Notes: generated by a model from the letters alone, not told the origin. A stretch of DNA of 64,000 nt from a bacterium (GCA_043805435.1 JAZDHY010000092.1:6668-70667), one strand, 5' to 3'. Counted from the stretch's first letter, positions 1 through 31,982 are shown. Made by a program: numbers and translations.

Positions 1-126
1 AATTGAAATAGGTTCTTTCCCTTTTATATAATAATTACCGGGAATTAAACTATTTCTTCTCATCTCATTTACAGCACCTTTAGTACTTATTGATCTTCTC
101 GTTGCAGTTAAATTATAATCTGCCAT
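1..126 (-). CDS. ctc: 50S ribosomal protein L25 / general stress protein Ctc, N-terminal part (3' end cut by window edge)
   Basis: Reverse strand from ATG at 126..124 reads MADYNLTATRRSISTKGAVNEMRRNSLIPGNYYIKGKEPISI. This matches the L25/Ctc N-terminal pattern (basic stretch, then 'IPG/AvlYGkG.eP'). Synteny with prs is the typical prs-ctc arrangement. Confidence 0.7.
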   Translation of the reverse strand, partial: MADYNLTATRRSISTKGAVNEMRRNSLIPGNYYIKGKEPISI

Positions 127-290
127 TGTATCTCCAAATAATTTTCTTAATTCTTGCTAACAATACTTAAAACTTTATAACTTACAAAACTAATGAATAA
201 ATTTCAAATTTGAAAGTGTTTAATAAAAAAAATATTTTTGTTTTATTTCTTTTATCTAATATTGCGAATTGAAGGACAAAAAATATACCT

Positions 291-443
291 TTATTTTGTT
301 ATAATTACAACTTCTCTTTTTATTCCAAGTTTTTTCATTTTACTGCCAAGAGTTTTGCCGTTTATTCCTAATAACTGTGAGGCACTTTTTTCTCCTGTAA
401 TTTTCCCGTTTGTTAAATTAAGTGCTTCAATTATGTGTTCTTT
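291..443 (-). pseudogene. Orphan remnant of a Fis-type HTH (C-terminus of a sigma54-dependent/NtrC-family activator)
   Basis: Minus-strand reading gives KEHIIEALNLTNGKITGEKSASQLLGINGKTLGSKMKKLGIKREVVIITK*. This fits the HTH_8 pattern 'E+..I..AL....GN...AA.LLGI.R.TL..K+KK.GI'. An in-frame TAA lies immediately upstream (444-446), there is no start codon, and no AAA+ domain lies upstream. Confidence 0.45.
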
Positions 444-1219
444 TTAATTGTTTATTTAATTGGTTAAGTTGCAAACAATTATTTTTTGCTTGCTGATTTA
501 TCATAAAGCTAATTAAAACAATACATATAATTTTGTTTAATTTAGAATAATTGAGAAGAGCCACAAATGAAATAAAATGCAGCAAATATTTATTCCCCAA
601 ATGATTATTTGGATATTAAAACAAATCATTAATAACTATTTCTATCCTTAAATCCTTTATTATAATTATTTCATTTTCATAGGTCTCAAATGTCAATTAT
701 TTGTTAAAGATTAAAGGGAAAATGGTTCTTCAGTATTTTTAATGGAAAATAAAATAAATAGTCTATTTCGTTTTATTAAACCCAAATTAGCAATTTGGTA
801 TATTTGTAAACTAACTACACCCAAAACAACCCAACAACTAAATAATAGTTTAATAAGTTTTTAAAAAAATAACAGAATGTTGATTTGAGAATTTTGAAAA
901 GATCTTAAATATATAGAATCAATTGTAATCAGTCAATTCAGTATCATCTATATTCTTTTTTTATTTCTTTTATTCAAGCTAAAGCACACTCTGCAATTAA
1001 GGTTCATTACAATATTAAAATATTTCCCTTGGCTCTAGAACCAGTAATATCTAATTCAATGCGTCTATAAAACTATAATTCTTATTAGTCAATTTTTATA
1101 TTTCTGAACTTCTAAATATTTCCGTTTTTCTTTTTTGCTAATTTTACTGAAGAACAAAAAAACGGGTACAAAGCAAAAATATTCACTAAAGCTGCGTACC
1201 CCTAATTTTTTATAAATAT

Positions 1220-2164
1220 TTAGCCTTTATCGTTTTCAAATAAAGAACTGATGGATTCATGCTTATACGAACGAACAATAGCTTCCGCAAATAAACTTGC
1301 AACACTGCGTACTTCCAGTTTAGGATGACTTGTACCTTCGGGAAGTGCTACGGTATCGGTAACATAAAGTTTTTTAATTGGTGCAGCCATAATTTTTTCA
1401 ATTGCTCCACCGGAAAATACAGGATGTGTTACTGCACCGTAAATATCTAAAGCACCACGTTCTTTAATTGCATTAATAGTAGCAATAAAAGTACCACCTG
1501 TATCAATCATATCATCAACAAGTAAAACATTTTTATCTTTTACATCTCCAATAACATTCATAACTTCGGCAAAATTTGCTTCAGGTCTTCTTTTATCAAT
1601 AACAACTAAACTGCCGTTTAATCTTTTTGAATATGCTCGTGCAATTTTAATACCGCCAAAATCGGGTGCGGCAATTGCCAAATCAGGAATTTTATCTTTA
1701 AATATTCCTGTAAATATTGGAGAAGCAAAAATATGATCAAAAGGAATATCAAAAAAACCTTGAATTTGAGCAGCATGCAAATCCATAGTTATTACTCTGT
1801 CGGCTCCGGCTACAGTAATAAGATTTGCTAAAAGTTTTGCAGTAATGGAAACTCGGGGCTGGTCTTTCCTATCTTGACGGGCATAACCAAAATAAGGTAT
1901 TACAGCAGTAACACGTTTTGCCGAAGCACGTTTTGCAGCATCAATCATAATAAGTAATTCCATAATATGATCTGCAGGAGGATGTGTGGATTGAATAATA
2001 AAAACATCTCTGCCTCTAATATTCTCTAAATATTTGACCCATATTTCACCGTCCGAAAAACGTTTGGATATTATTTCGCCCGGCTCGATGCCTAAATATT
2101 TAACAATACGATCTGTTAAAACTGAACTTGTTATTCCTGAAAATATTCTTGGTGGATTTTCCAT
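1220..2164 (-). CDS. prs: Ribose-phosphate pyrophosphokinase (PRPP synthetase)
   Basis: 314 aa with full-length Prs pattern: 'RFSDGE', 'PYFGYARQDRK', 'DLHA.QIQGFFDIP' and the PRPP loop 'VLLVDDMIDTGGT'. Confidence 0.95.
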   Translation of the reverse strand: MENPPRIFSGITSSVLTDRIVKYLGIEPGEIISKRFSDGEIWVKYLENIRGRDVFIIQSTHPPADHIMELLIMIDAAKRASAKRVTAVIPYFGYARQDRKDQPRVSITAKLLANLITVAGADRVITMDLHAAQIQGFFDIPFDHIFASPIFTGIFKDKIPDLAIAAPDFGGIKIARAYSKRLNGSLVVIDKRRPEANFAEVMNVIGDVKDKNVLLVDDMIDTGGTFIATINAIKERGALDIYGAVTHPVFSGGAIEKIMAAPIKKLYVTDTVALPEGTSHPKLEVRSVASLFAEAIVRSYKHESISSLFENDKG

Positions 2165-2435
2165 TGGTATTATATTTTATAATTAGAAAGTAAAATATAA
2201 ATATTTCTAATTTTGAAGTCAATTCAATCCCCATCACTTAAAAATATATTTTACAATTTAAAAAATATAATTGTTTATAAATAGATATATTTGTCCATTT
2301 TAAGCCAATATTAACAAAATATTAATATTAGTTTAAATTTTTACTATAATAGTTAGTAATTATAATTAATAACAAGACATTATGTGTTATATATCACAAA
2401 TAGTAATTATTTTTAGATATGGATCAATTTTTCAC

Positions 2436-2464
2436 TTGACAAGTGCACATTTGCGCACTATATT
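2436..2464 (+). promoter_or_regulatory. sigma70-type promoter of lexA (TTGACA-N17-TATATT) with an imperfect palindrome AGTGCACATTTGCGCACT filling the spacer (candidate LexA operator)
   Basis: TTGACA lies at 2436-2441 and TATATT at 2459-2464, with an exact 17-nt spacer. The arms AGTGC...GCACT (2442-2459) form an inverted repeat 30 nt upstream of the lexA ATG. LexA is normally autoregulated. Confidence 0.5.
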
Positions 2465-2494
2465 TGTAGTAAACAAAATAACACTATTTTATTT

Positions 2495-3115
2495 ATGAAA
2501 AATATAACAGATAGACAACAAGAAATTTTAGACTTTATACAAGAGTTTATTAATATTAACTCTTATCCGCCAACTTACCGCGAAATTGGTAAAAGATTTA
2601 ATATTGCTTCTACCTACGGGGTAAAAAGGCATTTAGATGCTTTACAAAAAAAAGGATTTCTTGAAACAGGTAAAAACACAAGCCGTACAATTTCTGTTGT
2701 TCAATCAAATGAAACCAATTACAGCAATACTATTGAAATTCCAATTGTAGGAAGAGTAGCAGCCGGTTATCCTGTATTATCGGAAGAAAACATTGACGGT
2801 AGTCTTATGTTAGATTCTTCGATGGTTAAAACCGATAAAATATGTTTTGCATTACGTGTAAAAGGTGAAAGTATGATACGTGCCGGAATTATGGAAGGTG
2901 ATTATGTAATAGTTGCCCAACAGAACACGGCAAATAACGGAGAAATTGTTGTTGCAGCAGTAAATGACGAGGCAACTTTAAAAAGATTTAACAAAACAGC
3001 CGCCGGAATTCAATTAATTCCCGAAAATGAAAATTTTTCGCCTATTGCTATAAACTTTTCTGATAATTTCTCGATAATAGGAAAAGTGATTGGAGTTTTT
3101 AGGTGGTACAAATAA
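2495..3115 (+). CDS. lexA: LexA repressor (S24 peptidase)
   Basis: N-terminal winged HTH ('LT.RQQEILDFI...GYPPTYREIG') is present. So are the Ala-Gly cleavage site 'VAAGYP', the catalytic Ser in 'KGESM' and the Lys in 'ATLKRF'. Confidence 0.93.
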   Translation: MKNITDRQQEILDFIQEFININSYPPTYREIGKRFNIASTYGVKRHLDALQKKGFLETGKNTSRTISVVQSNETNYSNTIEIPIVGRVAAGYPVLSEENIDGSLMLDSSMVKTDKICFALRVKGESMIRAGIMEGDYVIVAQQNTANNGEIVVAAVNDEATLKRFNKTAAGIQLIPENENFSPIAINFSDNFSIIGKVIGVFRWYK

Positions 3116-3129
3116 TAGTGAGGTATATA

Positions 3130-3381
3130 ATGAGAACAGAAGATATATTAAAAGCCGCTATAAATAACAGAAATAAGATTGAGTTTGATTACAATCTAAG
3201 CAATTATTCAGTGGAACCGTACTATATTGCAAAAAATCGTTTTGGCAAAACTGTTATTTTTGGGCGTGTAAATAACTCGCACCGTATTCAATCGTTTGAA
3301 TCCGAATTAATTAGAAATATCAGATTAATAGATTACGAACATTTTTCACCACTTATTCCTATTCTCCCGCAGTTTAATTAG
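3130..3381 (+). CDS. Small (83 aa) protein with a WYL-like pattern, second gene of the lexA operon
   Basis: I moved the start to ATG 3130, which follows the SD-like GTGAGG at 3117-3122; the track start at 3103 overlaps lexA. The sequence 'IEFDYN..YSVEPYYIAKNRFGKTVIFGRVNNSHRIQSFESELIRNIRLI' resembles the WYL core 'i.Y....R.v.P..l....wyl.g......r.Frl.rI'. This is pattern-level evidence only. Confidence 0.4.
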   Translation: MRTEDILKAAINNRNKIEFDYNLSNYSVEPYYIAKNRFGKTVIFGRVNNSHRIQSFESELIRNIRLIDYEHFSPLIPILPQFN

Positions 3382-3401
3382 TATAAATTACGAGGTGAAC
3401 C

Positions 3402-3791
3402 ATGGCACGCAAATATTCTACACGAGAAAGAGTTGACGAGCTGATAAATCACTTTTGGCGTAATGGATATTTAACTTTAAGCAGAAAGTATGGCAAATAT
3501 TTGCCGGAACCAAAACCGATTGGCGAATATTCTGTTGATGCTGTTGGAAAATATAAAAAGAAATATGTAATTGGTCTTATTCTTAGCGAAGAAGATTTTG
3601 AAGATAATAGAATTGTTTCCAAATTAAATTATTTGGCAACACGCCAAAACACACGTTACGATATTAAAGTTACACTTTATATCGGTGTACCACAAGATAG
3701 AGTTTACGAAGCTTCTTTGTTAATTGAAAAAACAAACTCTGAAGCTAAAAAAAATATAAAGATAGTCCCCCTCCCCGATTCTGATAGATAA
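3402..3791 (+). CDS. Hypothetical 129-aa protein, third gene of the lexA operon
   Basis: A good SD (GAGGTG) sits 6 nt upstream of the ATG. The gene is in the same orientation as lexA, 20 nt after the previous ORF, and is followed by a strong terminator. No family was recognised. Confidence 0.6.
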   Translation: MARKYSTRERVDELINHFWRNGYLTLSRKYGKYLPEPKPIGEYSVDAVGKYKKKYVIGLILSEEDFEDNRIVSKLNYLATRQNTRYDIKVTLYIGVPQDRVYEASLLIEKTNSEAKKNIKIVPLPDSDR

Positions 3792-3793
3792 AT

Positions 3794-3821
3794 AAAAAGC
3801 CGCCTTTTAGGCGGTTTTTTA
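3794..3821. terminator. Bidirectional rho-independent terminator between the lexA operon and the convergent NTPase gene
   Basis: The sequence is AAAAA GCCGCC TTTTA GGCGGT TTTTTT. A GC stem is flanked by an A-run and a T-run. Confidence 0.8.
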
Positions 3822-3880
3822 TTTATAGCAAACTTTAGTCTTTTTTAGCTTTACAATATATTATTCAAATCTAACTAAAA

Positions 3881-6800
3881 CTAATAATCTAATTCAGTAT
3901 TCCATTCCGGACATTTATTTTCATCTATTATTTGGTGAACTATTTCCAATAAATCATTTGGGATACTACCCGATTTCTTCGATTCGGAAAGAAGCATTTT
4001 TTTAGCAGTTTGTTTAACTAATTTTTTAAGATTTGGATGCGAAAATGCAATTTTAATATTATCTCCATAATGAATATCATTGTTAATCTGTTTTATTGGT
4101 TTTACAATTTCCGTTTCCCAATGTATTAATATTGCTTCGCATAATTTAAATACTTTTTGAGGATATAAACGATGAGAATATAAAACATTGTTAATAAGTG
4201 AAGCATTACTGTGTTTATAGTTGTTAATTATATTATTACATTCCGAGTGCCAAAGTTGTATCCCATGTAATGGAATTTTTAATATTTGACTGAAATGAAA
4301 ATATTGTTTTCCACCTTTATTTTTTGAATTTATTATTAAGGTTACTATATCTATAATAAATTTAGGATATGTTGTAGCATCTGTAAAGCAAAAAAAAGAC
4401 TGAAAGACAATTCTCCAATCAATAAATTCCCAATTATTCAAAATGTAAGTTGCTTTATTAACATCTTTGGAAATCTTAATTGCTTGAGATACAATATCTC
4501 TATTCAATTTAAAGAAATCCTGCTGCGAAAGAATAAGTATAGCAACTTTCTGTTTTTCAATATCATTACTCGAAATCCTTAGAGCCATTGTGACCAATTG
4601 GTTAGACAATTCAAACAAATCCGGTTTTGAAAGAATAATTGTTGACGCTACCTGCCTTTGATTTTCATTTTTCGAAATTTTCATTGCAACCGATACTAAA
4701 TCAGGAGGTAATTTAAATATATCCGGTTGTGATAGTATAGTGCTTGCTGCTGCTTGCCTTTCATTTTCATTTTTCGAAATATTCATTGCAATCGATACAA
4801 TATCAGGAGATAATTTAAGTATATCCGGTTGTGAAAGTATAATACTGGAGGCAACTTGTCGTTTCTTTTCATCTTTTGATATTTTCAGAGCTTTTGATAC
4901 AAAATCGTGGGTCGATTTGAAAAAATCCGGTTTGGATAGAATAAATGATGCTGCTTTTTGTCGTTCATCTTCATGTTTTGAAATATTCATAGCAGTTGAT
5001 ACAATTGCTGAAGTCAATTTAAATAAATTCGGCTGGGATAGAATAATTGTTGCTGCTGCTTGTCTTTTATTTTCATTCTTAAAGATCTTCATAGCTGTTG
5101 ATACTATATCCTGAGGCAATTTGAAGAAATCCGGACGAGCTAGAATAAAAGATACGGCTCTTTGCTGTTCCTCTTCGCTTTTTGAAAGCTTGATTGCCGT
5201 TACTACTATTCCTTGCGATAATTTTAGGAAATCTGGTTGCGATAGTATATAAGTCACAGCTTTTCTCCCTTCAGGCAGAAATTGTATCTGATTTAAGCAT
5301 AGACAAATTACATCTTTCGAATATTCATTTTCTAAGAAATTATCTAAAATAGCAATTGCATAAGTGTTTTTTTCCTCCTCATCAATTTCGATTAAACCAT
5401 TAAAAAGATATTTTAAATAGCTGCCTCTATTACCCTTTTTGAATAATATTTTTATATAGTTCAATCTTTCTTGATTAGAAATATTTTCCTTATCTACTGT
5501 ACGAAATGTATATTCCAAATAGCTTGATGCTGAAAAATTTTCGCCTTCATTAATAAACATTGGTAGCATTTTAAGTTTGATACTGTCATCAAATTTGTAC
5601 CAGCCATTTATTTTTAACTTACTCAAACCTTCATCTGCCAAAATATCGTGATTAAAAGCAACAAGCAGTAATTGTCCGGCAGACTTAATTGCACCGGTTG
5701 TCTGATTCATATAGATATCTAATATAGGTTTTATCTCCTTTGAAGCAAAAGCAAATTTACTCGATTCTCCTCTCTCCTCAAACAAATCACATAGTTTAAT
5801 AAAAATATCAAAACTAATTAACAGTCTGCTTTCAGAATATACAGAGCCATAATAATAAAGCATTTTTGCCAAACCCAAATATTGTTTTGCAATTGCTTTT
5901 AAATCACTTTCTACAATTGTTAAAAAATGGCCGGTAAGTCCTTCGTATTGAATTGCATATTCATCGTCAATTTTGTTTTTAGATTGATATGTTCTTGCAA
6001 TAACCCAAAGTATTAAATATAACGAACTTTTATAGTCCGATTCCTCGGTCAATAACAAATCTGCGGTTGCCTTCCAGCGTGATATTTTTTCAAGAATTTT
6101 AGTAATTGTCTTTTTGTTTTCGCTTGCAAGTAATTCAATAATATTTTCATCAGGATTATAAATATGTTCGGTTGAAATTGAATTATCAATAGTGCGATCC
6201 CCTATTATAACTCGCACATTTGGGTAGTTACATATACTATCTATAATATTCTTTGCGTTTTCAGGGTTTATCTTTTCTTTATCAGGGTTCATTTTATACC
6301 AGTCTTCAATAAAAATCAAGAACATAATTTCAGTAAAATCATTCAGTTGGTTTATTCCTTTTTCGTAGAATTTTGATATTTCTTTAACATTTAACCATAA
6401 CACACAGATATTCTCTTCACTGCAAACAACTGCCAATCGCCTCATTAAAGTAGATTTTCCACTTCCGCCACGTCCATGTATAAGGGCAATTATTTTTGGC
6501 TCCCTATATTCATCAGCAAATGCTTTATCTATTTCCTTTTTTATTTTAATATAAGCATCTCTTTCAATATCCAATTTATTTAAAATACCGTACCACTGAC
6601 ACGTTTCATTTTTTTTTGCTAAATAAAAATCAGATTCCTTATATTTTTTCTTTTTACCAATAGACAAAGTATCACTAAGAAAACTTTTGCTGATAACTGT
6701 AGCACCTTCAATTTGGATAGAATCGAACAAACTTTCTTTGCTTCGAAATTTATTATGAGTATTTTTTACAATACGTTTAGAAAAACCGGTCAGCTTTTTA

Positions 6801-6925
6801 GAATAATAGTATATTATTGGAGTAGCAATTACTGTAATTATGCCAGTCACAATTCCTAAGGTTAAAGGATTTTCGTTTATGGCTTTCACAATATTATGAA
6901 ATATTTCTGTCATCCCCAAGCTCAA
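3881..6925 (-). CDS. Membrane-anchored P-loop NTPase (STAND-like) with a C-terminal array of 34-aa helical repeats
   Basis: 1014 aa. An N-terminal hydrophobic helix (LTLGIVTGIITVIATPIIYYY) is followed by Walker A 'HGRGGSGKST' (about 6455-6480) and Walker B-like 'MFLIFIEDW'. A helical region and eight tandem 34-aa repeats with consensus 'ILSQPDFFKL..DIVS.AMKISKNE..RQ.AA..' come next, then a C-terminal region of about 200 aa with no recognised family. Confidence 0.75.
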   Translation of the reverse strand: MSLGMTEIFHNIVKAINENPLTLGIVTGIITVIATPIIYYYSKKLTGFSKRIVKNTHNKFRSKESLFDSIQIEGATVISKSFLSDTLSIGKKKKYKESDFYLAKKNETCQWYGILNKLDIERDAYIKIKKEIDKAFADEYREPKIIALIHGRGGSGKSTLMRRLAVVCSEENICVLWLNVKEISKFYEKGINQLNDFTEIMFLIFIEDWYKMNPDKEKINPENAKNIIDSICNYPNVRVIIGDRTIDNSISTEHIYNPDENIIELLASENKKTITKILEKISRWKATADLLLTEESDYKSSLYLILWVIARTYQSKNKIDDEYAIQYEGLTGHFLTIVESDLKAIAKQYLGLAKMLYYYGSVYSESRLLISFDIFIKLCDLFEERGESSKFAFASKEIKPILDIYMNQTTGAIKSAGQLLLVAFNHDILADEGLSKLKINGWYKFDDSIKLKMLPMFINEGENFSASSYLEYTFRTVDKENISNQERLNYIKILFKKGNRGSYLKYLFNGLIEIDEEEKNTYAIAILDNFLENEYSKDVICLCLNQIQFLPEGRKAVTYILSQPDFLKLSQGIVVTAIKLSKSEEEQQRAVSFILARPDFFKLPQDIVSTAMKIFKNENKRQAAATIILSQPNLFKLTSAIVSTAMNISKHEDERQKAASFILSKPDFFKSTHDFVSKALKISKDEKKRQVASSIILSQPDILKLSPDIVSIAMNISKNENERQAAASTILSQPDIFKLPPDLVSVAMKISKNENQRQVASTIILSKPDLFELSNQLVTMALRISSNDIEKQKVAILILSQQDFFKLNRDIVSQAIKISKDVNKATYILNNWEFIDWRIVFQSFFCFTDATTYPKFIIDIVTLIINSKNKGGKQYFHFSQILKIPLHGIQLWHSECNNIINNYKHSNASLINNVLYSHRLYPQKVFKLCEAILIHWETEIVKPIKQINNDIHYGDNIKIAFSHPNLKKLVKQTAKKMLLSESKKSGSIPNDLLEIVHQIIDENKCPEWNTELDY
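4463..5248 (-). repeat. Coding tandem repeat, 102-bp period x about 8 (34-aa units R1-R8 of the NTPase)
   Basis: Unit starts fall at 5248, 5146, 5044, 4942, 4840, 4738, 4636 and 4534. The period was verified from the recurring 'atccggttgt' at 4721 and 4823. Degenerate units flank both ends. Confidence 0.9.
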
Positions 6926-7635
6926 TTATTTGTTGATAAAACTATTCAAACAATTGGACATAAATTATTTGTTGATATAGGCTTAGTTTATTTGCTTGTG
7001 GCAGAATTCCATTTCTATAAATATCAGCAGAATAATTATATTATTTTCACACTATTCTTCCAACTGCAATTATTTATATTGATTTTTTTTGATAAAAAGA
7101 AAATAATATATTTTCAGCTAAATTAATACTTATTTTTGTTAAAATTGTTTATTATTTATATTTTTTAAAATTTAACATTGGCTTTTACAAGTATATATAA
7201 ATTATTTGACCTGAATTATGCAATAGAAGAAACAATTGGCGTTGTTATTTTATGATGCAGAGAGGCAAGTAGAGAGAAACATGGTTTGGGTAGTTAATTT
7301 ATAAATGACGCTTCACTAACCTTTAGGTTGGGATTATTTAGATTAAAGCTTAGAATAATGTTAATACTCAAATTTCCACAAGTTGTTTTGTTTTTAAATA
7401 ATTATTCCCTTTAAAGGTCCTAAGATAATTGAGGAATGGTAAGATTTTCCTTAATTAATATTTTATTGATTACAGTATTAAACTTGGGTTAAAACCCAAG
7501 GTCGGTTTTATTCCACCACCGGCATAAATGCCGGTGTTATTTAAAATCTAACAACTTATTGTAATAGTGTACATTATCAAAATATTATTTTATTAAAGCA
7601 TTGCAGAAGTGAGCCACATTTTTAAACTAGCCTTA

Positions 7636-7670
7636 CAAAAAAAGCCGCAAATATTTAACAACTTACGGCT
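7636..7670 (-). terminator. Rho-independent terminator of the ABC-2/lipoprotein operon
   Basis: On the minus strand the sequence is GCCGUAA...UUUGCGGC followed by UUUUUUU. It lies about 50 nt after the stop at 7718. Confidence 0.6.
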
Positions 7671-7717
7671 TATTAATCTTTTCTTTTAATTCAAAATTAA
7701 GAATTAAAAATTCAAAA

Positions 7718-8422
7718 TTATTTTCTCTCTTTTTTCTTTTCAAAAAAACTATCTGCAATACCCTTGTTTATTTTATAGTTTGAATAATAAAGGTAAACAT
7801 CACCCGATATTCCATCTTTACTTTTTGATTTCTTTGCCGCATCGTCAGGGTCATCCATTTTGCCGGGCATATGACCGGACATATTCATACCAGCCATATT
7901 AAAATTAAATTTTACTTGTTTTGGCAATGGGTATTTAATACCGTCATCATATTTAAGGTCAATTTTAATAGCTCCGCCGCGCTTTGTGTTGGTTTCAATT
8001 TTATTAAGCACATATTTTTCCGCATCTACATACAAAGTAGTTAATATAACCTCTGACGAATCGCTATTTGGCAAAATTTTAATAATGTGTACTTTTTTAC
8101 CATCCAAATCGTCAAGTTTAACATAAACGGATGTAAAATCATCTGTTAAAAATTTTGCGGGATTATAATTTAATCCTTCCTTAGGCAGCATAGCAAAACC
8201 TTCGGAATCGAACTTAAATTTATCGGGTTGTTTAAAATATACTTTGGCTTTTGATTCGGGCATTTTTAAAAAACTAACATCCAGTTTTATTTTTAAATCA
8301 ACTTGATAATCTTTTACAACATTAAATCTTTCTTTAACTTTATCTAATATTTTTTGCGGATTTGTTTCTTGTGCAAAAAGACCGCCTGCAATAAAAAACA
8401 ATATTAAAATTACTTTTTTCAT
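7718..8422 (-). CDS. Secreted LolA-like / outer-membrane lipoprotein-sorting-fold protein (putative)
   Basis: It has a signal peptide (MKKVILILFFIAGGLFAQ), a beta-rich sequence and the start 'KILDKVKERF..VKDY', which is typical of LolA-fold DUFs. It is the last gene of the ABC-2 operon. Confidence 0.5.
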   Translation of the reverse strand: MKKVILILFFIAGGLFAQETNPQKILDKVKERFNVVKDYQVDLKIKLDVSFLKMPESKAKVYFKQPDKFKFDSEGFAMLPKEGLNYNPAKFLTDDFTSVYVKLDDLDGKKVHIIKILPNSDSSEVILTTLYVDAEKYVLNKIETNTKRGGAIKIDLKYDDGIKYPLPKQVKFNFNMAGMNMSGHMPGKMDDPDDAAKKSKSKDGISGDVYLYYSNYKINKGIADSFFEKKKERK

Positions 8423-8430
8423 AATTTATC

Positions 8431-9267
8431 CTATGATAATATATCTTTTTTAATAAAAATGTAGCTTGTAACACCGTATAAAACAGCAATATGAGCAATT
8501 AAAACTGAAGCTGATTTAGTAACTTCCCAATAATCAACAGGATCATCAAAAAATAATTTCCAATCATTTAAATAATTAGTAAATAAATATGGATGAATTA
8601 ATTTAATAAAATCAAAATTTAATGCGGAAAGTATAATAAAAATTATAATAACTGCCATTGTAGAAATAATTGGTCCAATTGCATTTGCAACAAGTGACGA
8701 AAAAAATATTGAAATTGATATTACAGTACTCATGCTTAATATAGCAAATAAATAAGCACAAATAAATCGCCATAAAACATCACTTGCCGCATAAATAAAA
8801 ACTTTATCTCTTAATATTATCAGTTCGCCTGTTCCAAATATTAAACAGCTTACACCCAAACTTATTATAAAAATAAAAATCATAAATAAAGTTGTGTAAA
8901 CAAAACCCGAAAGAAATTTTGCTGTTACTATTTTTAATCTACTAACCGGACGAGTTAACAACATTCTGTAAGTACCTTGGGTAGCTTCACCTGCCAACAG
9001 GTCGCCGCCTACTAAAACAATTAAAAAAGGGATATGAATATATAAAGTTTGCAATAAAATATTTGCAATAAAATAACCATTCACTAAATTACCTAATATA
9101 ACAAACGAATCCGAAAAACTTCTTGTAGCCATATCAACCGAATGTCTTCCTTCAAAATACATTGCAGTTTGAACAATTCCGGTTAAAAAAACAATAACAA
9201 TAAAACCTATATAAGTACGCCATTTGCTAAATATTTTAACTAACTCAGTATTTATTAATGCTAACAT
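8431..9267 (-). CDS. ABC-2 type transporter permease
   Basis: 278 aa with about 6 hydrophobic segments. It overlaps the stop of the upstream ATPase gene by 1 nt. Confidence 0.75.
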   Translation of the reverse strand: MLALINTELVKIFSKWRTYIGFIVIVFLTGIVQTAMYFEGRHSVDMATRSFSDSFVILGNLVNGYFIANILLQTLYIHIPFLIVLVGGDLLAGEATQGTYRMLLTRPVSRLKIVTAKFLSGFVYTTLFMIFIFIISLGVSCLIFGTGELIILRDKVFIYAASDVLWRFICAYLFAILSMSTVISISIFFSSLVANAIGPIISTMAVIIIFIILSALNFDFIKLIHPYLFTNYLNDWKLFFDDPVDYWEVTKSASVLIAHIAVLYGVTSYIFIKKDILS

Positions 9268-10184
9268 TATTTACCCTCCGTAATTTTCAAGAAGTATTCT
9301 TCCAAGGATCTGCTTTGAACAATTGAAGAAACGTTAATTCCGTTTTCTACAAACAACTTATTTAGAACAGGGATTATTTCTTTTTCGGTTTCTAAAATTA
9401 AACTATTATTGCGTTTTTCTTTTAATATTACCGAACCGTTAAAAGAATTTAATAATTGAATTGCTTTTTCCATATCATCAACTTCAAATTCGGTACTTAA
9501 CGAGTCTTTACTCAACAAATCCTGAACTTTACCTTCTATTTGGGTAGTTCCTTTATTAATAATAATCATTCTGTTTGCAATAATTTCAACTTCTTTTAAA
9601 ATATGCGAAGATAATAATATTGTTTTATGCTGCTCTTTACTTAACATTAAAATTAAATCTCTTATCTCTTTAATTCCTTGAGGATCCAACCCTGTTGTAG
9701 GTTCATCAAGTATAATTAATTTAGGATTATGTATTAATGCCTGCGCAATACCAAGCCGTTGTTTCATTCCGTGCGAATATGTTTTAACTTTGCTTTTGTA
9801 TCGCTTTTCCAATCCAACAAGTTCAAGCATTTCCATAATACGTTTTTTAGAAGTATCGGCACCGCTTAATTTACCAAATATTTCCAAATTTTTATACGCA
9901 GACAGATATAAATAAAAATCCGGTTTTTCCACAATTGCGCCAATATTTCTTAAAATATCTTCACGATTTGGGTTTAGCGGTTTATCAAATATTTTTATTG
10001 TTCCTGCAGTAGGTTTAATTAAAGTTAAAAGCATTCTTATTGTAGTGCTTTTACCTGCTCCGTTAGGGCCTAAAAAACCAAACACATCACCTTCATATAC
10101 ATTTAAGTCCAAATTGTTGACTGCCATAATATCTTTAAATTTTTTTGTCAGTCCCCTTATTTCAATAATTGGAGTATTTTCCAA
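9267..10184 (-). CDS. ABC transporter ATP-binding protein
   Basis: Walker A 'GPNGAGKST', signature 'SHGMKQRLGIA', Walker B 'LIILDEPTTGLD' and an H-loop 'SSH' are present. Confidence 0.92.
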   Translation of the reverse strand: MENTPIIEIRGLTKKFKDIMAVNNLDLNVYEGDVFGFLGPNGAGKSTTIRMLLTLIKPTAGTIKIFDKPLNPNREDILRNIGAIVEKPDFYLYLSAYKNLEIFGKLSGADTSKKRIMEMLELVGLEKRYKSKVKTYSHGMKQRLGIAQALIHNPKLIILDEPTTGLDPQGIKEIRDLILMLSKEQHKTILLSSHILKEVEIIANRMIIINKGTTQIEGKVQDLLSKDSLSTEFEVDDMEKAIQLLNSFNGSVILKEKRNNSLILETEKEIIPVLNKLFVENGINVSSIVQSRSLEEYFLKITEGK

Positions 10185-10493
10185 ATAGAACCTCGTTTTT
10201 TTAGTTTTTAGACGTATATAGGAATTAATAGTTCAAATTTAAAGATTTTATTTTAAACCCCATAAATATATTTTTAATTATGTTTTATTACTAAAGTCAA
10301 AATATAACATTTTGATAATATTTTTATTATTGCAAATAATTGTCAAAAAATTTTAAATTATTTTAACGTTTATTAAAAAGATATACGTATAATATCAAAA
10401 TAAAATGTTACTGAAATATAGGAATAAATAAGTCGTTAAGTCAAATACCAATGTTTTTTTATTACAATAACGAGCCGTTAGGCTCGTTATTGA

Positions 10494-11369
10494 TTAGTCT
10501 CTCTCCCCTGAGGGCATCAAATATTTCTCGTAATCATTATATAAACTCTTTATCTTAAGTTTTATTGTTATTATAAGCTTATAAGGATTATTATTTCTTA
10601 ATATCTCATTATGAATGTTTAATTGTTCTTGTTTCAATTTAAGCTTTTCTGTTAATCGCTGATATGGTGTTTTAGCTGTTGACATGATTTTATAAATCTT
10701 TCCGTTCCTAATTAACTTTTCTTTTAACTGTTCAGATGGTATAAAATAGTTATTTATAAACTCTGTCTCATTATCTGAATCGAACCCTAATATTGAGAAC
10801 GGCAGCCTTTCTTCAATGCTCATAATTGTTGTATGAACATTCCGTTGTCCTTTCTCCCAAACGGCCATTGTTTCTACCCAACCTGTTGCTATATCAGTAA
10901 TTACAACTGAATGCACAAAACTTCCTGAACAACTTGTTCCACCATGAGCTACTGTATCTGCTTCTACAAACCCGGGTTTTTCATCGTCCCATTTGTTTGA
11001 ATGGATTGGTATTTGTTTTTTTAATAAGGAGCCGGGTTTGGTTGTACACATTCTGTTTGGGGCGTATTTATTTCGATATTCGCTTAATATTCTTTCTATG
11101 CTTGATGACGATATGATTAGCAATAACTCTTTTATGTTTTCAGGTATTGCATTGGTGGAATATGGCAGCCAGACTTTTATTGCTTCTTTTAATCTTCTTG
11201 AGCAGATAAATTGTGTCTGTTTCCATAAATCAAGTATGAAGTCCTTGATTGCCGGATTATTATATTTACTTTTTCGCCCTCGTTTCTTTACATGGTTTGA
11301 AGTTTTAGTTTCCTTATAATTTAATTTCCTGATAACATGTTTTCGACTATGATTTGTCAACTCGACCAA
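10494..11369 (-). mobile_element. Degenerate DDE (rve/integrase-core) transposase, ISNCY-like; lacks a proper N-terminus and appears internally deleted
   Basis: Motifs seen are 'KKRGRKSKYNNP...LW', 'VEADTVAHGG....GSFVHSVVITDIATGWVE' and 'LGFDSDNETEFIN'. The ORF begins at a TTG with no ATG or HTH region. The segment that normally carries the third acidic catalytic residue appears absent, because the sequence jumps to the C-terminal 'KTPYQRL' tail. No terminal inverted repeats were found. Confidence 0.65.
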
Positions 11370-11693
11370 TATTGTGACTATTCGTGTTTTTTCAGATTTA
11401 ATTTGTAATCTGTAATTTTTTTTGATATTTTTTGTATATTTCTTTATTGGTTTATTGCGTCATGCGGCCTCCAGCCGATTATTTAATGGTTTTTTTTGGT
11501 AACATTAATTTATGACGCAACGACCGTTTCTTCAATTCACTTTTTTTTCTCTCGGTATCATTTTTTATGACTTAAGCCGCTCAAGTCACCAAAATTCTAT
11601 TCTTCATAATTTATCTTGTAATTTGAATTCCGATTTAATATCTTGCATAATCGAATTGAGCAATCACAGACAATTTTTTAACTTGGAGGACAA

Positions 11694-28000: not shown

Positions 28001-28305
28001 AGTCTAATAAGTTTTTAAGATCCCATAAAGATAAAACAAAAAATGATGGAGTCAAAACTGCATGTGGTAAGTTAATTGTTTTAGTTGATAAAGGAACAAT
28101 TACCGCTTTACCTAATGAACTAAAAAAAATAAAACAAAAATTGGATAAAAAAGAATTTACTGATGGACAAGTTGATAACTTAATTTTGGGGCTTGAACAA
28201 AAGTATATTTCTAAAATAGAAATTGAAAATGAGGAAAACCAACAAGTTGGTTTTTTTGCCGATATTACACCCGTAATAATTTTATCAGAAACTTATATTG
28301 AATGA
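25006..28305 (+). CDS. PLD-family nuclease domain fused to an SNF2-family (SF2) helicase/translocase
   Basis: The N-terminal PLD motif is 'HAKFYLF...GSSNLT' (HxK at 25402-25410). The SNF2 motifs are I 'GLGKT', II 'LVDEAHRYRN' (26089-26100), III 'SATPLNN' and V/VI 'TDVLAEGVNL...QRIGRVNRIG'. Length is 1099 aa. Confidence 0.88.
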   Translation: MSSKFFTNRSERNLFDKFKGILENMKDLYAFHAVVGYFRSSGYFALQPYLKDIKDIKILVGINVDQMFAEAQRKGLIYFGDENKTKNEFLNWFINDIKEAKYTLEVENGVLQFVQDLMDGRIQVRAHNSQNIHAKFYLFLPENHSEHTDGWVIMGSSNLTEAGLGIKKTPNYELNIALKDFDDVSFTVDEFKKLWDHSTPILPADIQQFKEKTHIGQVFTPYELYLKFLIEYFGKNIDYDPDTVGDLPKTYKKLSYQIDAVNQGFQMLMEHNGFFLADVVGLGKTVVAAMIAKRFIIANGSLNTKILVVFPPAVEKNWKTTFRLFGIDRHTKFITNGSLDKIIDNRDLNYWAKEDYDLILVDEAHRYRNHTSEMFGFLQRICKSPRVNNGLIAGDKKKVILISATPLNNRPQDLYYQLLLFQDSRKSTLNITNLQNFFGPLIREYKEIIRNSEPNLQSIRDIYIKIREELISQITVRRTRRDLNNYPKYIEDLKAQGIVFPEIAAPKPKYYQLDAKLSKLFYHTIFYLTDSDKINYYRYQAIAYLKPEFREQYYEQAELVSNSLAGIMKTLMVKRLESSFNAFKISLQNLADSTQIMIDMFERGKVLIAPNLHIKGLLDKGVTIEDIEDKILELSIENPKNNIFTTQDFEDDFLPGLKKDHLLLTDLIKDWGVVKHDPKLETFINSIENEFLNKTINPTGKLVIFTESKDTALYLQENVEKILKTKVLNISSSNRNKLFDVILENFDANFNGEGKDDYKILITTDVLAEGVNLHRANVIINYDTPWNATRLMQRIGRVNRIGSVAGVIYSYNFYPSAQGDEEINLYNNALIKLQGFHTAFGEDAQIFTHEELIEQFELFKEGLKDEEDKRLIYLQFIREFKDNNPKEFKRIKQFPLKARTMRKTSIANKKDLQKSSIVFLKSAYKTEFYKVDEINSVTPLTFVEAAESFEAKLNEQGFKLEEIHYKQINAALNKFEEDFLISGTETVTSLDKSDVISPQSNKFLRSHKDKTKNDGVKTACGKLIVLVDKGTITALPNELKKIKQKLDKKEFTDGQVDNLILGLEQKYISKIEIENEENQQVGFFADITPVIILSETYIE

Positions 28306-31962: not shown

Positions 31963-31982
31963 TTCAACAAGTGGAGGTTTTG

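What the first reader, a model, noticed from the sequence alone, without database searches (positions are those of the whole stretch)
3881..6925. Membrane-anchored STAND-like NTPase of 1014 aa with eight near-identical 34-aa tandem repeats
The architecture is a single N-terminal TM helix, a linker of about 100 aa, a P-loop NTPase (GRGGSGKST; hhhhED Walker B), a helical domain, eight units of 34 aa plus degenerate flanking units, and a C-terminal domain of about 200 aa. A P-loop followed by a repeat sensor is the layout of STAND/NLR-like antiphage proteins (Avs, bNACHT), and N-terminal TM segments are known effector modules in that class. The repeats are unusually regular for a bacterial solenoid. 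The period is exactly 102 bp, the consensus is ILSQPDFFKL..DIVS.AMKISKNE..RQ.AA.., and variation is concentrated at a few positions (about 7-8, 11-13, 17, 24-28 and 30-34). That is the pattern expected for modular ligand or nucleic-acid readers (TALE units are also 34 aa and PPR units 35). The gene is isolated: it is convergent with the SOS (lexA) operon and is preceded by 790 bp of gene-free AT-rich DNA.
Basis: partly seen in the sequence, partly recalled or inferred. Interest (0 to 1): 0.7.

Follow-up and report, generated by a model that had tools for sequence, protein, structure and literature searches.

The report
Membrane-anchored STAND immune-sensor-like NTPase
This gene encodes a membrane-anchored member of the STAND/NLR-like family of ATP-driven switch proteins that bacteria use as single-protein virus sensors; it belongs to a rare, untested branch whose relatives carry a cell-killing enzyme where this one has a membrane helix, and whose sensor arm is an unclassified 34-residue helical repeat.

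Summary
The gene is on the minus strand (CDS 3881-6913). It most likely starts at the ATG, giving 1010 aa. The eight 34-aa units are in exact 102-nt register but are only about 51% identical in protein and 64% in DNA, so they are not near-identical.

The core is a true STAND NTPase. Pfam nSTAND_NTPase5 scores above its cutoff. Walker A, Walker B, GDR and an MHD-like FNHD motif are conserved. The best AlphaFold2/Foldseek matches are SAMD9, an archaeal STAND-TPR protein, NOD2 and NLRC4.

Relatives attach SIR2, PRTase-CE or other N-terminal modules at the junction where this clade has one TM helix. There is no conserved partner gene. Many relatives sit in mobilisable or conjugative elements, or next to Gabija, restriction-modification, AbiE or toxin-antitoxin genes. 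This supports a single-gene, Avs/NLR-like conflict system.

The repeats fold as an ARM/HEAT-like solenoid but match no known repeat family. Copy number ranges from 3 to 9 in close orthologues, and variability is position-specific. A family-specific 183-aa C-terminal cap is conserved.

The TALE/PPR-like "code reader" idea is not supported but is not excluded. No member of the family has been tested. I rate it a new variant of a known kind, of moderate interest.

The parts
3881..6913 (-). Whole CDS (1010 aa plus stop), using the ATG at 6913. An in-frame TTG at 6925 would add 4 aa.
   Evidence: ORF list and translation. 100% identical over the full length to NCBI MAG protein P0001, 1010 aa.
6803..6913 (-). 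N-terminal module, aa 1-37. It comprises a short amphipathic helix and a single TM helix (aa 17-37, containing G20xxxG24). It is predicted N-out/C-in because the following 22 residues are K/R-rich.
   Evidence: Kyte-Doolittle 19-residue mean of 2.0 at aa 17-35. The same feature (1.64-2.19) is present in all nine TM-clade homologues. AF2 helices 2-14 and 18-37, at low pLDDT.
6737..6802 (-). Basic, low-confidence linker (aa 38-59).
   Evidence: pLDDT below 50 for aa 32-57; sequence.
6509..6736 (-). Conserved helical module before the NBD (aa 60-135). Its motifs are I.I.GA..I and FY.AKq...cQWyGi...wd..R. Its start is the junction at which N-terminal modules are swapped across the family.
   Evidence: Invariant G70, F78, W107, G109 and R118. 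The Pfam PF25199 match starts at aa 104. Homology with the SIR2, PRTase and other forms starts here (sequences; Walker A offsets).
6128..6508 (-). P-loop nucleotide-binding domain (aa 136-262). Walker A GRGGSGKST is at aa 147-155 (nt 6449-6475). Walker B FLIFIED is at aa 198-204 (nt 6302-6322). The GDR sensor-1-like motif is at aa 238-240 (nt 6194-6202).
   Evidence: Pfam nSTAND_NTPase5 E 2.2e-9, 37.7 bits against cutoff 34. Invariant G147, G150, G152, K153, D204, D239 and R240. The AF2 strand-helix pattern fits.
5609..6127 (-). Helical domain plus winged-helix-like domain (aa 263-435), with an invariant FNHD motif at aa 420-423 (nt 5645-5656). This motif is the counterpart of the NLR 'MHD' histidine.
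   Evidence: Invariant F420 and D423, with N421 and H422 conserved in at least 90% of 48 homologues. Beta-hairpin 402-405/417-420 in the model. The Foldseek alignments to SAMD9, 6mfv, NOD2 and NLRC4 are long, at 782-936 alignment columns.
5249..5608 (-). Degenerate helical hairpins that start the solenoid (aa 436-555).
   Evidence: AF2 helices 443-558 with pLDDT above 90.
4433..5248 (-). Eight tandem 34-aa (102-nt) units, aa 556-827. Each unit is a 3-residue turn, a 10-residue helix and a 12-residue helix. The family consensus is ILSQPDFFKLPxxIVSTAMKISKDExxxQKAAxx.
   Evidence: the repeat finder D1, 8 copies at exact 102-nt spacing; TRF; register and identities; structure; per-position entropy.
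3884..4432 (-). Family-specific C-terminal cap domain (aa 828-1010). It is helical with one beta-hairpin. Conserved motifs are kIPfH, C..iL.nW..E, h.G.hi..algHP.Lk and a terminal P.W.
   Evidence: Conservation. phmmer against 1.84 billion representatives gave only 113 hits, all at the extreme C-terminus of 900-1400-aa proteins or fragments. No Pfam match at E<=10.
3800..3814 (-). Intrinsic-terminator-like hairpin (CCGCCTAAAAGGCGG followed by a T-run), 67 nt after the stop codon. It lies between the convergent STAND gene and the lexA operon.
6914..7717 (-). ORF-poor, AT-rich upstream region (26% GC). It holds a sigma-70-like -35/-10 match at 7063-7035, the terminator of the upstream gene at 7671-7642, and several small hairpins (7483-7536, 7316-7331).
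   Evidence: No Rfam family matches. The promoter match is a consensus match only.

Best explanation
The gene encodes a stand-alone, membrane-anchored STAND NTPase of the nSTAND5 clade. It is built like an antiviral STAND (Avs) or NLR-type receptor.

Proposed mechanism:
1. The cytoplasmic C-terminal arm is the sensor. It consists of an ARM/HEAT-like solenoid of 34-aa units and a conserved 183-aa cap.
2. In the resting state the nucleotide-binding module (NBD, helical domain and winged helix with an FNHD histidine) holds the protein in an ADP-bound, autoinhibited monomer.
3. Binding of a foreign ligand, most likely a phage or mobile-element protein, permits nucleotide exchange and oligomerisation.
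4. Oligomerisation clusters the N-terminal module. In relatives that module is a SIR2 NADase or a PRTase. In this clade it is a single GxxxG-containing TM helix.
5. The clustered helices are proposed to breach or depolarise the inner membrane and abort the infection.

Shown here: the domain identities, the motifs, the fold, the swap of N-terminal modules at one junction, the lack of a conserved partner gene, the mobile-element and defence contexts of relatives, and the rapid turnover of the repeat array.

Inferred: the defence function, the nature of the ligand, and the TM helix acting as the killing effector.
For: STAND identity:
- Pfam PF25199 scores above its gathering cutoff.
- Walker A, Walker B, GDR and FNHD are invariant across 48 homologues.
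- The AF2 model has pLDDT 87.7. Its best PDB matches are SAMD9 (E 2.6e-9), STAND-TPR 6mfv, NOD2, NLRC4 and NLRP7.

Effector position:
- All 63 homologues contain PF25199. Many carry SIR2_2 (PF13289) at the N-terminus. P0042 carries PRTase-CE, which matches the PADLOC retron type III-A PRTase at E 9e-43.
- The Walker A offset is about 150 in the TM clade and about 375 in the SIR2 clade. Homology begins at the same I.I.GA..I motif in both.

TM helix:
- Kyte-Doolittle mean of 2.0, conserved in all nine clade members, with basic residues on the C-terminal side.
- TM is listed among the abbreviations of the domain-architecture figure for the Avs7/Dsr1 clade in PMC13581612.
- In one SIR2-form relative an S_4TM membrane-effector gene overlaps the 3' end of the gene.

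Single-gene, mobile and defence context:
- No neighbour is shared among loci.
- Relatives lie beside AbiEi/AbiEii and HipBA.
- Others lie beside a CHAT protease, a Y1 transposase, MazEF and ParE.
- One lies inside an element with a relaxase, a type IV coupling protein and integrases.
- Among 134 neighbour ORFs from 12 genomes there are 7 coupling-protein hits, 3 relaxases, MobC, NikA, MmeI and HerA. The same set includes GajA (E 4.8e-282), type IIG restriction-modification, E1-E2 and MADS components.

Sensor dynamics:
- Copy number ranges from 3 to 9 in the TM clade.
- Units are not positionally orthologous.
- Unit blocks are 96-100% identical in DNA in relatives.
- Variability is position-specific and reproducible.
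- pN/pS is 0.8-1.3 at the five most variable positions against 0.2-0.56 elsewhere in four of the five arrays analysed.

Rarity and patchiness:
- Only 113 representative clusters carry the C-terminal cap.
- Only 15 of about 185,000 species genomes matched, scattered over Ignavibacteriota, Bacteroidota, Cloacimonadota and Acidobacteriota.
Against: - No member of the family has been tested. PADLOC (2023) recognises neither this protein nor its relatives as Avs or any other system.
- In this window, and in four homologue loci, the immediate neighbours are housekeeping genes. The only other defence cluster in the window is 14 ORFs away.
- GC content gives no sign of recent acquisition.
- A single TM helix could be only an anchor.
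- The conserved C-terminal cap, rather than the variable repeats, might be the ligand site.
- The pN/pS contrast is partly circular, because the positions were chosen for being variable. It never clearly exceeds 1, and it is reversed in the three-unit array of P0008.
- The neighbourhood enrichment was not compared with a genome-wide background.
- I could not inspect the AF2 coordinates, so surface mapping and the autoinhibitory contacts are not shown.
Confidence: 0.55

Rival explanations
1. The architecture is the same, but the TM helix is only a membrane anchor. It would place the sensor at the inner membrane, for example to detect phage entry or assembly there. The output would then be something else: NTP hydrolysis or depletion, recruitment of an unlinked partner, or sequestration of the ligand by oligomerisation.
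For: The N-terminal module is only about 60 aa with one TM helix. The module before the NBD (aa 60-135) is highly conserved and has no assigned function. Some relatives (P0041, P0018) seem to have short N-termini with neither a TM helix nor a recognised enzyme.
Against: The TM module occupies exactly the slot held by the SIR2 and PRTase effectors in relatives. No partner gene is conserved. From general knowledge, TM-only effectors activated by oligomerisation are common in abortive-infection systems.
Confidence: 0.15
2. The protein is a non-immune, membrane-associated STAND switch or scaffold. It would work like regulatory STANDs such as MalT or AfsR, or like assembly scaffolds, and would serve a cellular signalling role in FCB-group bacteria.
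For: The immediate neighbours here (prs, lexA, a LolA-like gene and an ABC transporter) and in four homologue loci are housekeeping genes. [quoted passage not shown]
Against: There is no DNA-binding or other output domain. The distribution is extremely patchy and rare. No synteny is conserved. The N-terminus is swapped for the toxic effectors SIR2 and PRTase. Relatives often reside in mobilisable elements and next to Gabija, restriction-modification and AbiE genes. The sensor array turns over rapidly.
Confidence: 0.12
3. The 34-aa array is a modular 'code' reader in the manner of TALE, PUF, PPR or designed ARM proteins. Each unit would read one base, or one or two residues of an extended ligand, through specificity residues at unit positions 12-13 and possibly 26, 33 and 34.
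For: The period is an exact 34 aa. Entropy is highest at positions 12 and 13, directly after a conserved Leu-Pro. A small set of dipeptides recurs across proteins: KE in 22 units of 11 proteins, YQ in 19 units of 14 proteins, HQ in 15 units of 14 proteins. Positions 12 and 13 are coupled, with mutual information of 1.24 against 0.82 +/- 0.06 when shuffled. In homogeneous arrays such as P0002 and P0029, positions 12-13 are among the most variable, together with 24-26 and 33-34. The array has a net charge of +10. Nop9 and PPR10 appear among the weak fold hits.
Against: Units in this protein are only 51% identical, and more than ten positions vary. The best solenoid fold matches are AP2, importin-alpha, beta-catenin and designed ARM proteins, at E of 1e-3 to 1e-2 and low TM-scores, and no TALE or PUF entry is among the 50 listed matches. 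There is no profile similarity to TALE, PUF, PPR, ARM or TPR consensus units (probability <=0.2%, the same as a scrambled control) or to any Pfam repeat. The Q/E bias at position 13 and Pro at position 11 are ordinary preferences at a helix N-terminus. The mutual-information and recurrence statistics are not corrected for shared ancestry of units. Copy number varies from 1 to more than 10, with no conserved unit order.
Confidence: 0.08

Closest known systems
Avs5 (SIR2-STAND; Pfam nSTAND3 core) and the SAMD9-like STANDs (Avs6, Avs9, human SAMD9/9L)
   Same: The layout is tripartite: an N-terminal effector, a STAND NTPase and a C-terminal helical-repeat sensor. Relatives of this protein carry the same SIR2_2 Pfam domain as Avs5 (PMC12931631). 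nSTAND3 is the second-best, sub-threshold Pfam hit. Human SAMD9 is the best PDB fold match (E 2.6e-9), as has been reported for Avs5 (PMC12931631; PMC13581612; PMC12680541).
   Different: The Pfam NTPase family differs (nSTAND5, not nSTAND3). PADLOC reports no hit to any Avs model for this protein or its SIR2-form relatives. No PDB sequence matches significantly. The sensor is an unclassified 34-aa repeat plus a family-specific cap, whereas Avs5 sensors are described as TPR, Sel1 or PPR repeats (PMC12931631) and SAMD9 adds an OB fold (PMC12680541). This clade has a TM helix in place of SIR2. TM-scores are low (about 0.3).
Antiviral STANDs in general (Avs1-4, Avs7-24, bNACHT)
   Same: They are single-polypeptide pattern-recognition receptors with interchangeable N-terminal effectors, mostly helical-repeat sensors, and ligand-induced oligomerisation (PMC13581612). 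'TM, transmembrane' appears among the abbreviations of the domain-architecture figure for the Avs7/Dsr1 clade.
   Different: No trigger, oligomer or phenotype is known for this family. Its hosts are FCB-group bacteria, not the Enterobacteriaceae mostly tested. Whether it is one of the 589 census clades could not be checked, because the supplements are not held.
Plant CC-NLR resistosomes such as ZAR1 (from general knowledge; not tested here)
   Same: Functional analogy only. A STAND core oligomerises on ligand recognition, and the bundled N-terminal helices act on the membrane as a pore or channel.
   Different: In ZAR1 the N-terminal helix is buried and is released on activation. Here the helix is hydrophobic enough to sit in the membrane all the time. 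There is no sequence relationship, and the sensor is an LRR rather than an ARM-like solenoid.
ARM/HEAT solenoids (importin-alpha, beta-catenin, designed armadillo repeat proteins, AP2)
   Same: The right-handed helical-hairpin solenoid is the best fold match for aa 520-1010. Each unit has a short turn and two helices, like a compact ARM unit.
   Different: The units are 34 aa rather than about 42 (ARM) or 37-47 (HEAT). There is no Pfam or profile similarity. E-values are only 4.5e-4 to 1e-2, with TM-scores of 0.2-0.4.
TALE (34 aa), PUF (36 aa) and PPR (35 aa) modular nucleic-acid readers
   Same: The unit length is similar, each unit has two helices, and the most variable pair of residues falls at unit positions 12-13.
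   Different: There is no sequence match and no fold match better than those to generic ARM/HEAT solenoids. The units are far more divergent than TALE units. Variation is not confined to the specificity residues.

Membership tests
STAND NTPase superfamily (Pfam nSTAND_NTPase5 clade) | P-loop NTPase matching the family profile above the curated cutoff. | tested here: met
   PF25199 E 2.2e-9, 37.7 bits against a gathering cutoff of 34, covering aa 104-202 (profile positions 8-102 of 145). All 63 homologues carry PF25199.
STAND NTPase superfamily (Pfam nSTAND_NTPase5 clade) | Walker A, an hhhhD/E Walker B, a sensor-1 arginine, and a conserved histidine in a winged-helix domain after the NBD (the MHD-like motif). 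| tested here: met
   G.GGsGKST at aa 147-155, fL..IEDwY at aa 198-206, iGDR at aa 237-240 and FNHD at aa 420-423 are invariant or at least 90% conserved in 48 sequences. A beta-hairpin plus helix is present at that site in the model.
STAND NTPase superfamily (Pfam nSTAND_NTPase5 clade) | An NBD-HD-WHD fold resembling solved STAND/NLR proteins. | tested here: met
   Foldseek gives SAMD9 at 2.6e-9, 6mfv (STAND-TPR) at 8.9e-6, NOD2 at 1.5e-4, and NLRC4 and NLRP7 at 3e-4 to 6e-4. TM-scores are low (0.2-0.3) because domain orientations differ.
STAND NTPase superfamily (Pfam nSTAND_NTPase5 clade) | C-terminal superstructure-forming repeats and a variable N-terminal effector or adaptor module. | tested here: met
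   Solenoid from aa 443 to 1010. The N-terminal module is TM, SIR2_2, PRTase-CE or unassigned at one junction.
Named antiviral STAND families Avs1-5 (as modelled in PADLOC-DB 2.0) | A match to the family HMMs. | tested here: not met
   No Avs hit for the query or for seven diverse homologues, including the SIR2 forms. Only P-loop-level hits such as mad8 and PtuA appeared.
Named antiviral STAND families Avs6-24 / census clades of PMC13581612 | Membership of a defined clade or sensor structural cluster. | not testable with these tools
   The supplementary tables are not held and no profiles are available.
Anti-phage defence system (functional class) | Protection against phage, or trigger-dependent cell death. 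| not testable with these tools
   Context evidence only.
Anti-phage defence system (functional class) | Enrichment next to known defence genes or inside mobile elements. | tested here: inconclusive
   Several relatives lie next to AbiE, HipBA, MazEF, CHAT, GajA, type IIG restriction-modification or E1-E2 genes, or inside mobilisable elements. At least five loci, including this window, have housekeeping neighbours. No background rate was computed.
TALE/PUF/PPR-type modular nucleic-acid readers | Sequence or profile similarity to the repeat family. | tested here: not met
   No Pfam hit at E<=10. hhalign against consensus units written from memory gave probability <=0.2%, equal to a scrambled control.
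TALE/PUF/PPR-type modular nucleic-acid readers | A specific fold match, and variation confined to a few specificity residues. | tested here: not met
   The best solenoid matches are AP2, importin-alpha, beta-catenin and designed ARM proteins. PPR and Nop9 appear only at equally weak E-values. Units are 51% identical, with more than ten variable positions.
TALE/PUF/PPR-type modular nucleic-acid readers | Sequence-specific nucleic-acid binding. | not testable with these tools
   Only a net charge of +10 over the array.
ARM/HEAT repeat proteins | A Pfam or profile match to ARM or HEAT units. | tested here: not met
ARM/HEAT repeat proteins | An alpha-solenoid fold of stacked helical hairpins. | tested here: met
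   The sensor-half model has pLDDT 91.7. Foldseek top hits are ARM/HEAT proteins, though weak.
For KAP, TM helices inserted within the P-loop domain. | tested here: not met
   The query has no NACHT, NB-ARC or KAP hit. Homologues give only sub-threshold NACHT or NB-ARC hits. The TM helix is N-terminal and not inserted in the NTPase.

The most novel reading that the evidence does not exclude
The 34-aa units could form a previously unrecognised class of programmable recognition module inside a bacterial immune receptor. Each unit would contribute a small 'specificity dipeptide' at positions 12-13, drawn from a limited alphabet such as YQ, HQ, KE, NQ, DS and FG. The array would read an extended ligand, either nucleic acid or an unfolded peptide, unit by unit. 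Rapid block duplication of units would re-programme specificity. Ligand binding would be coupled through the STAND switch to a one-helix membrane pore.
Probability: 0.08. Interest if true: 0.85.

Novelty: new variant of a known kind. Interest (0 to 1): 0.45.

Why it matters
STAND/NLR-like receptors are the main single-protein pattern-recognition sensors of bacterial antiviral immunity, and they are evolutionarily tied to animal and plant innate immunity. Almost all tested examples come from Proteobacteria and use enzymatic effectors with TPR-like sensors.

This family would extend that knowledge in several ways:
- It would add an experimentally untouched clade centred on Ignavibacteriota and Bacteroidota.
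- It has possibly the simplest effector imaginable, a single TM helix. That would make it a bacterial counterpart of the resistosome idea.
- Its sensor is built from an unclassified, very regular 34-aa repeat whose copy number and a few surface positions change quickly.
- The natural series of TM, SIR2 and PRTase versions on one chassis is a ready-made set for testing how STAND oligomerisation drives different outputs.
- The regular repeat could be attractive for protein engineering if its recognition rules turn out to be modular.

If none of that holds, it is simply one more uncharacterised STAND paralogue.

Tried and rejected
- Literature: a full-text search for 'nSTAND5' returned only false positives. 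The term is absent from the Kaur 2020 text. It is also absent from the text and 26 supplements of the Kaur 2021 paper, which define only nSTAND1-3. The supplements of the 2026 STAND census are not held.
- The exact protein is not indexed in the contig collection. Context therefore came from homologues.
- Synteny: a tblastn of nine window neighbours against 20 homologue loci found nothing relevant.
- PADLOC and NCBIfam on the query gave only P-loop noise.
- Sequence searches of the PDB with the family profile, the query and a SIR2-form homologue found nothing significant.
- A Foldseek search of viral structures found nothing specific.
- Per-segment Pfam scans at E<=10 found no repeat family and no domain for the cap or the N-terminus.
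- hhalign against remembered consensus units of TALE, PUF, ARM, TPR, PPR, HEAT, Sel1 and ANK gave no signal.
- Rfam on positions 1-12000 gave only a sub-threshold Histone3 hit inside the repeats, which is a chance match.
- There are no tRNA genes in the window, no convincing flanking direct or inverted repeats around the gene and no GC anomaly. An island boundary could not be defined.
- There is no paralogue in the window.
- dN/dS between units of this gene is largely saturated (dS<1 in 10 of 28 pairs), so more homogeneous arrays of relatives were also analysed.
Variable positions could not be mapped onto surfaces, and inter-domain contacts could not be inspected.
- Rejected: KAP, NACHT and NB-ARC membership; the 124-aa antisense ORF at 4740-5114 as a real gene; and regulation by LexA, because the gene is convergent with the lexA operon and a terminator separates them.

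Full report
**1. What is in the sequence**

- An uninterrupted ORF occupies window 3881..6925, but on the minus strand.
- The TTG at 6925 gives 1014 aa. Four codons downstream there is an ATG at 6913.
- The 1010-aa product from that ATG is 100% identical over its full length to a hypothetical protein of an NCBI metagenome-assembled 'bacterium' (P0001). I use CDS 3881-6913.
- The gene is monocistronic.
  - A terminator-like hairpin at 3814-3800 follows its stop codon and separates it from the convergent lexA operon. That operon comprises lexA at 2495-3115 and two small unassigned ORFs.
  - Upstream lies a 792-bp ORF-poor stretch of 26% GC. It holds the terminator of the preceding LolA-like/ABC-transporter operon and a sigma-70-like match about 120 nt before the ATG.
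- GC content is about 30% throughout, so composition gives no sign of recent acquisition.
- There are no tRNA genes in the window and no convincing flanking direct or inverted repeats around the gene.
- The window contains no paralogue.

**2. The repeats**

- The repeat finder reports eight copies at exactly 102-nt spacing (4448-5263). TRF finds period 102.
- In protein register the units are aa 556-827.
- The units are regular but not near-identical. Mean pairwise identity is 51% in protein (29-71%) and 64% in DNA (50-85%). Units 5 and 6 are the closest pair.
- Positions I1, L2, V15 and A18 are invariant. Entropy peaks at positions 12, 13, 26, 33 and 34, with further variation at 11, 16-17, 24-30 and 32.

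**3. Domain anatomy**

- Kyte-Doolittle analysis gives one strong hydrophobic segment at aa 17-37 (mean 2.0). It contains G20xxxG24. A short amphipathic helix precedes it, and a stretch with eight K/R residues follows it.
  - By the positive-inside rule (general knowledge), the bulk of the protein is cytoplasmic, as an NTPase must be.
- Pfam gives nSTAND_NTPase5 (PF25199) at 37.7 bits against a gathering cutoff of 34. nSTAND3 is a sub-threshold second hit.
- In an alignment of 48 homologues (A1) the following are invariant or at least 90% conserved:
  - Walker A, G.GGsGKST (aa 147-155)
  - Walker B, fL..IEDwY (aa 198-206)
  - iGDR (aa 237-240)
  - FNHD (aa 420-423)
- The FNHD motif sits in a beta-hairpin-plus-helix element after a helical domain. 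That is where NLRs carry the ADP-contacting 'MHD' histidine (general knowledge).
- The 'linker' at aa 60-135 is really a conserved helical module with invariant G70, F78, W107, G109 and R118.
- AlphaFold2 on A1 gives a confident model: mean pLDDT 87.7 and pTM 0.63, with only aa 1-57 poorly defined.
- The solenoid begins near aa 443. Each 34-aa unit is a 3-residue turn, a 10-residue helix and a 12-residue helix.
- The last 183 aa form a helical cap with one beta-hairpin.

**4. Fold comparisons**

- The full-length model best matches human SAMD9 (E 2.6e-9 to 5.9e-9). Next come the Pyrococcus STAND-TPR protein 6mfv, NOD2, NLRC4 and NLRP7. AAA+ relatives (ORC/Cdc6, TRIP13) and generic solenoids follow.
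- A separate model of aa 520-1010 (pLDDT 91.7) matches AP2, designed armadillo proteins, importin-alpha, beta-catenin and condensin HEAT subunits. These matches are weak (E 4.5e-4 to 1e-2, TM-scores 0.2-0.4).
- No TALE or PUF entry is among the 50 listed matches. PPR-type mitoribosomal proteins, PPR10 and Nop9 appear at the same weak level as everything else.
- The repeat and cap match no Pfam family even at E<=10.
- They match no PDB sequence.
- They match none of eight classical repeat consensus units that I wrote from memory (hhalign probability <=0.2%, the same as a scrambled control).
- The array is therefore a compact ARM/HEAT-like solenoid whose repeat family is unclassified at the sequence level.

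**5. The family**

A word-indexed search found 63 homologues, all with PF25199. They fall into architectural groups that share everything from the I.I.GA..I motif onward but differ upstream of it:

- **TM clade.** P0001-P0008 and P0010, at 47-56% identity to the query. Each has one TM helix (Kyte-Doolittle mean 1.64-2.19), and Walker A lies near residue 150.
- **SIR2 clade.** A large clade with an N-terminal SIR2_2 domain, and Walker A near residue 375.
- **PRTase form.** P0042 carries PRTase-CE, which matches the retron type III-A PRTase models of PADLOC at E 9e-43.
- **Other forms.** Flavobacterial and Chryseobacterium forms have an unassigned N-domain of about 190 aa. P0056 has another unassigned N-domain.

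This pattern is the effector modularity typical of Avs/NLR-like STANDs (PMC13581612; PMC12931631).

The C-terminal cap alone, searched against 1.84 billion representative proteins, finds only 113 proteins. It is always at the extreme C-terminus of 900-1400-aa proteins or in fragments. The cap is therefore family-specific, and the family is rare.

A scan of one genome per species found 15 loci:
- Melioribacter (61% identity, the closest)
- Bacteroidales
- Ferruginibacter
- Flavobacterium
- Chryseobacterium
- Winogradskyella
- Polaribacter
- Cloacimonadota
- Pyrinomonadaceae

**6. Genomic context**

No neighbour is shared between loci, and none of this window's neighbours recurs.

Contexts suggestive of conflict or mobility:
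- AbiEi/AbiEii and HipBA flank P0007.
- An integrase fragment, a CHAT protease, a Y1 transposase, MazEF and ParE surround the SIR2-form P0013.
- P0029 lies in an element with a relaxase, a type IV coupling protein, two integrases and a replication protein.
- An S_4TM gene overlaps the end of the SIR2-form P0027.
- Among 134 neighbour ORFs from 12 genome loci, Pfam finds 7 coupling-protein hits, 3 relaxases, MobC, NikA, MmeI, a D12 methylase and HerA. PADLOC finds GajA (E 4.8e-282), type IIG restriction-modification, E1-E2 and MADS components.

Against this, the neighbours are housekeeping genes for P0002, P0005, P0008 and P0014 and in this window. I computed no background rate, so I treat the association as suggestive only.

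**7. Dynamics of the sensor array**

- Copy number is 3-9 in the TM clade and 1 to more than 10 elsewhere. Periods of 30, 34 or 36 aa occur in different subclades.
- Units are not positionally orthologous, except for the last one.
- Within-protein unit identity ranges from 0.35 to 0.91.
- In relatives, blocks of one to three units are 96-100% identical in DNA, which indicates very recent duplication. This gene's best pair reaches 86%.
- The per-position entropy profile of this protein correlates with that of its orthologues (r=0.65). The profile of the TM clade correlates with that of non-TM clades (r=0.69).
- Between-unit pN/pS is 0.8-1.3 at the five most variable positions. At the other positions it is 0.2-0.56 in four of the five arrays analysed; in the three-unit array of P0008 the contrast is reversed (0.78 against 1.08). 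This contrast is partly circular, and it never clearly exceeds 1.
- Positions 12-13, right after a conserved Leu-Pro at the N-terminus of the first helix, use a limited and recurring set of dipeptides: KE, YQ, HQ, NQ, HH, PD, DS and FG. The two positions are statistically coupled, with mutual information of 1.24 against 0.82 +/- 0.06 when shuffled.
  - Part of this reflects ordinary helix N-terminal preferences (Pro at position 11, Gln/Glu at position 13).
  - Part may reflect shared ancestry of unit types.
  - It is an interesting lead, not evidence of a recognition code.

**8. Interpretation**

The evidence fits a single-gene, membrane-anchored STAND receptor of the Avs/NLR kind. The sensor would be the solenoid plus cap. 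The switch would be the NBD-HD-WHD module with its FNHD histidine. The output would be whatever sits at the N-terminus, which here is one GxxxG-containing TM helix.

I propose that ligand-induced oligomerisation bundles these helices and compromises the membrane. That would be an abortive-infection output analogous in logic to TM effectors of other defence systems and to plant CC-NLR resistosomes (general knowledge).

- The domain identities, the junction swap, the context and the array turnover are shown here.
- The defence role, the ligand and the pore are inferred.

Rival readings:
- The TM helix is an anchor only.
- The protein is a non-immune regulatory STAND.
- The array is a modular code reader.

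**9. Relation to what is known**

- The NTPase clade is already catalogued in Pfam. I found no paper in the library that describes nSTAND5.
- PADLOC 2.0 recognises neither the query nor its relatives as any Avs type.
- The closest characterised systems are Avs5 (SIR2 plus nSTAND3 plus helical repeats) and the SAMD9-like Avs6 and Avs9 (PMC12931631, PMC12680541).
  - They share the layout, the SIR2 option and the SAMD9 fold match.
  - They differ in NTPase family, sensor repeat and cap, and this clade has a TM module.
- Whether the family is among the 589 clades of the 2026 census could not be checked.

**10. Verdict**

I classify the gene as a new variant of a known kind: an uncharacterised, rare STAND family with a one-helix membrane module and an unclassified 34-aa ARM-like repeat sensor. 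Interest is moderate at 0.45. It would rise sharply if the repeats proved to be a modular reader, or if the single helix were shown to be a resistosome-like pore.

Noticed in passing
window 25006-33926 (+): This is a separate defence-like cluster, 14 ORFs away from the STAND gene. It holds an HKD/PLD + Snf2 helicase (PADLOC C3a139 at 2e-44, DrmD-like at 3e-30), a 212-aa ORF, a 1022-aa type IIG restriction-modification/DrmMI/PglX-like methyltransferase (6e-67) and a 651-aa AAA ATPase with mad3/AbiLi/AriA-like hits. It could be a DISARM-, BREX- or type IIG-like system.
   Followed up: partly
window 11694-13793 (+): A 699-aa protein with Ycf48/BNR-like beta-propeller repeats (123-nt DNA period, family D2) and a C-terminal type IX secretion sorting domain (Por_Secre_tail). 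This points to an FCB-group host (Bacteroidota, Ignavibacteriota or relatives).
   Followed up: partly
window 2495-3791 (+): lexA (S24 peptidase plus LexA DNA-binding domain) is followed by two small ORFs, at 3103-3381 (overlapping the end of lexA) and 3402-3791. Neither has a Pfam or PADLOC match. They may be SOS-operon partners of unknown function.
   Followed up: partly
window 10494-11369 (-): A 291-aa ORF with only a weak, sub-threshold match to the integrase core domain rve (E 0.0019). It may be a degenerate transposase 3.5 kb upstream of the STAND gene. No terminal inverted repeats were seen.
   Followed up: no
window 4740-5114 (+) and 4887-4933 (-): A 124-aa antisense ORF and a sub-threshold Rfam Histone3 stem-loop hit (22 bits against a cutoff of 34) both lie inside the repeat array. 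Both are best read as by-products of the repetitive sequence.
   Followed up: yes
window 7316-7331, 7483-7536, 7642-7671: There are several GC-rich hairpins in the AT-rich 792-bp gap upstream of the gene. The one at 7671-7642 (- strand) looks like the terminator of the LolA-like/ABC operon. The others (CACCGGCATAAATGCCGGTG, CTTGGGTTAAAACCCAAG, CTAACCTTTAGGTTGG) are unexplained. No Rfam family matches them.
   Followed up: no
L025 7259-8125; L004 7618-9846: In relatives, an S_4TM (SMODS-associated four-TM effector) gene overlaps the 3' end of the SIR2-form homologue P0027. A CHAT (caspase-like) protease gene sits directly upstream of the SIR2-form homologue P0013. These may be accessory effectors in some subclades.
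   Followed up: no
Homologue arrays: L004 (P0013), L005 (P0029), L003 (P0008): Blocks of one to three repeat units are 96-100% identical in DNA within these genes. In P0012 and P0013 the dipeptide types alternate in higher-order patterns (for example FG-YQ-KE repeated). This shows very recent block duplication in the sensor arrays.
   Followed up: partly
window 1-1200: This is the lowest-GC stretch examined (23.5%). Its only ORF of at least 60 aa is 69 aa long. It was not examined further.
   Followed up: no
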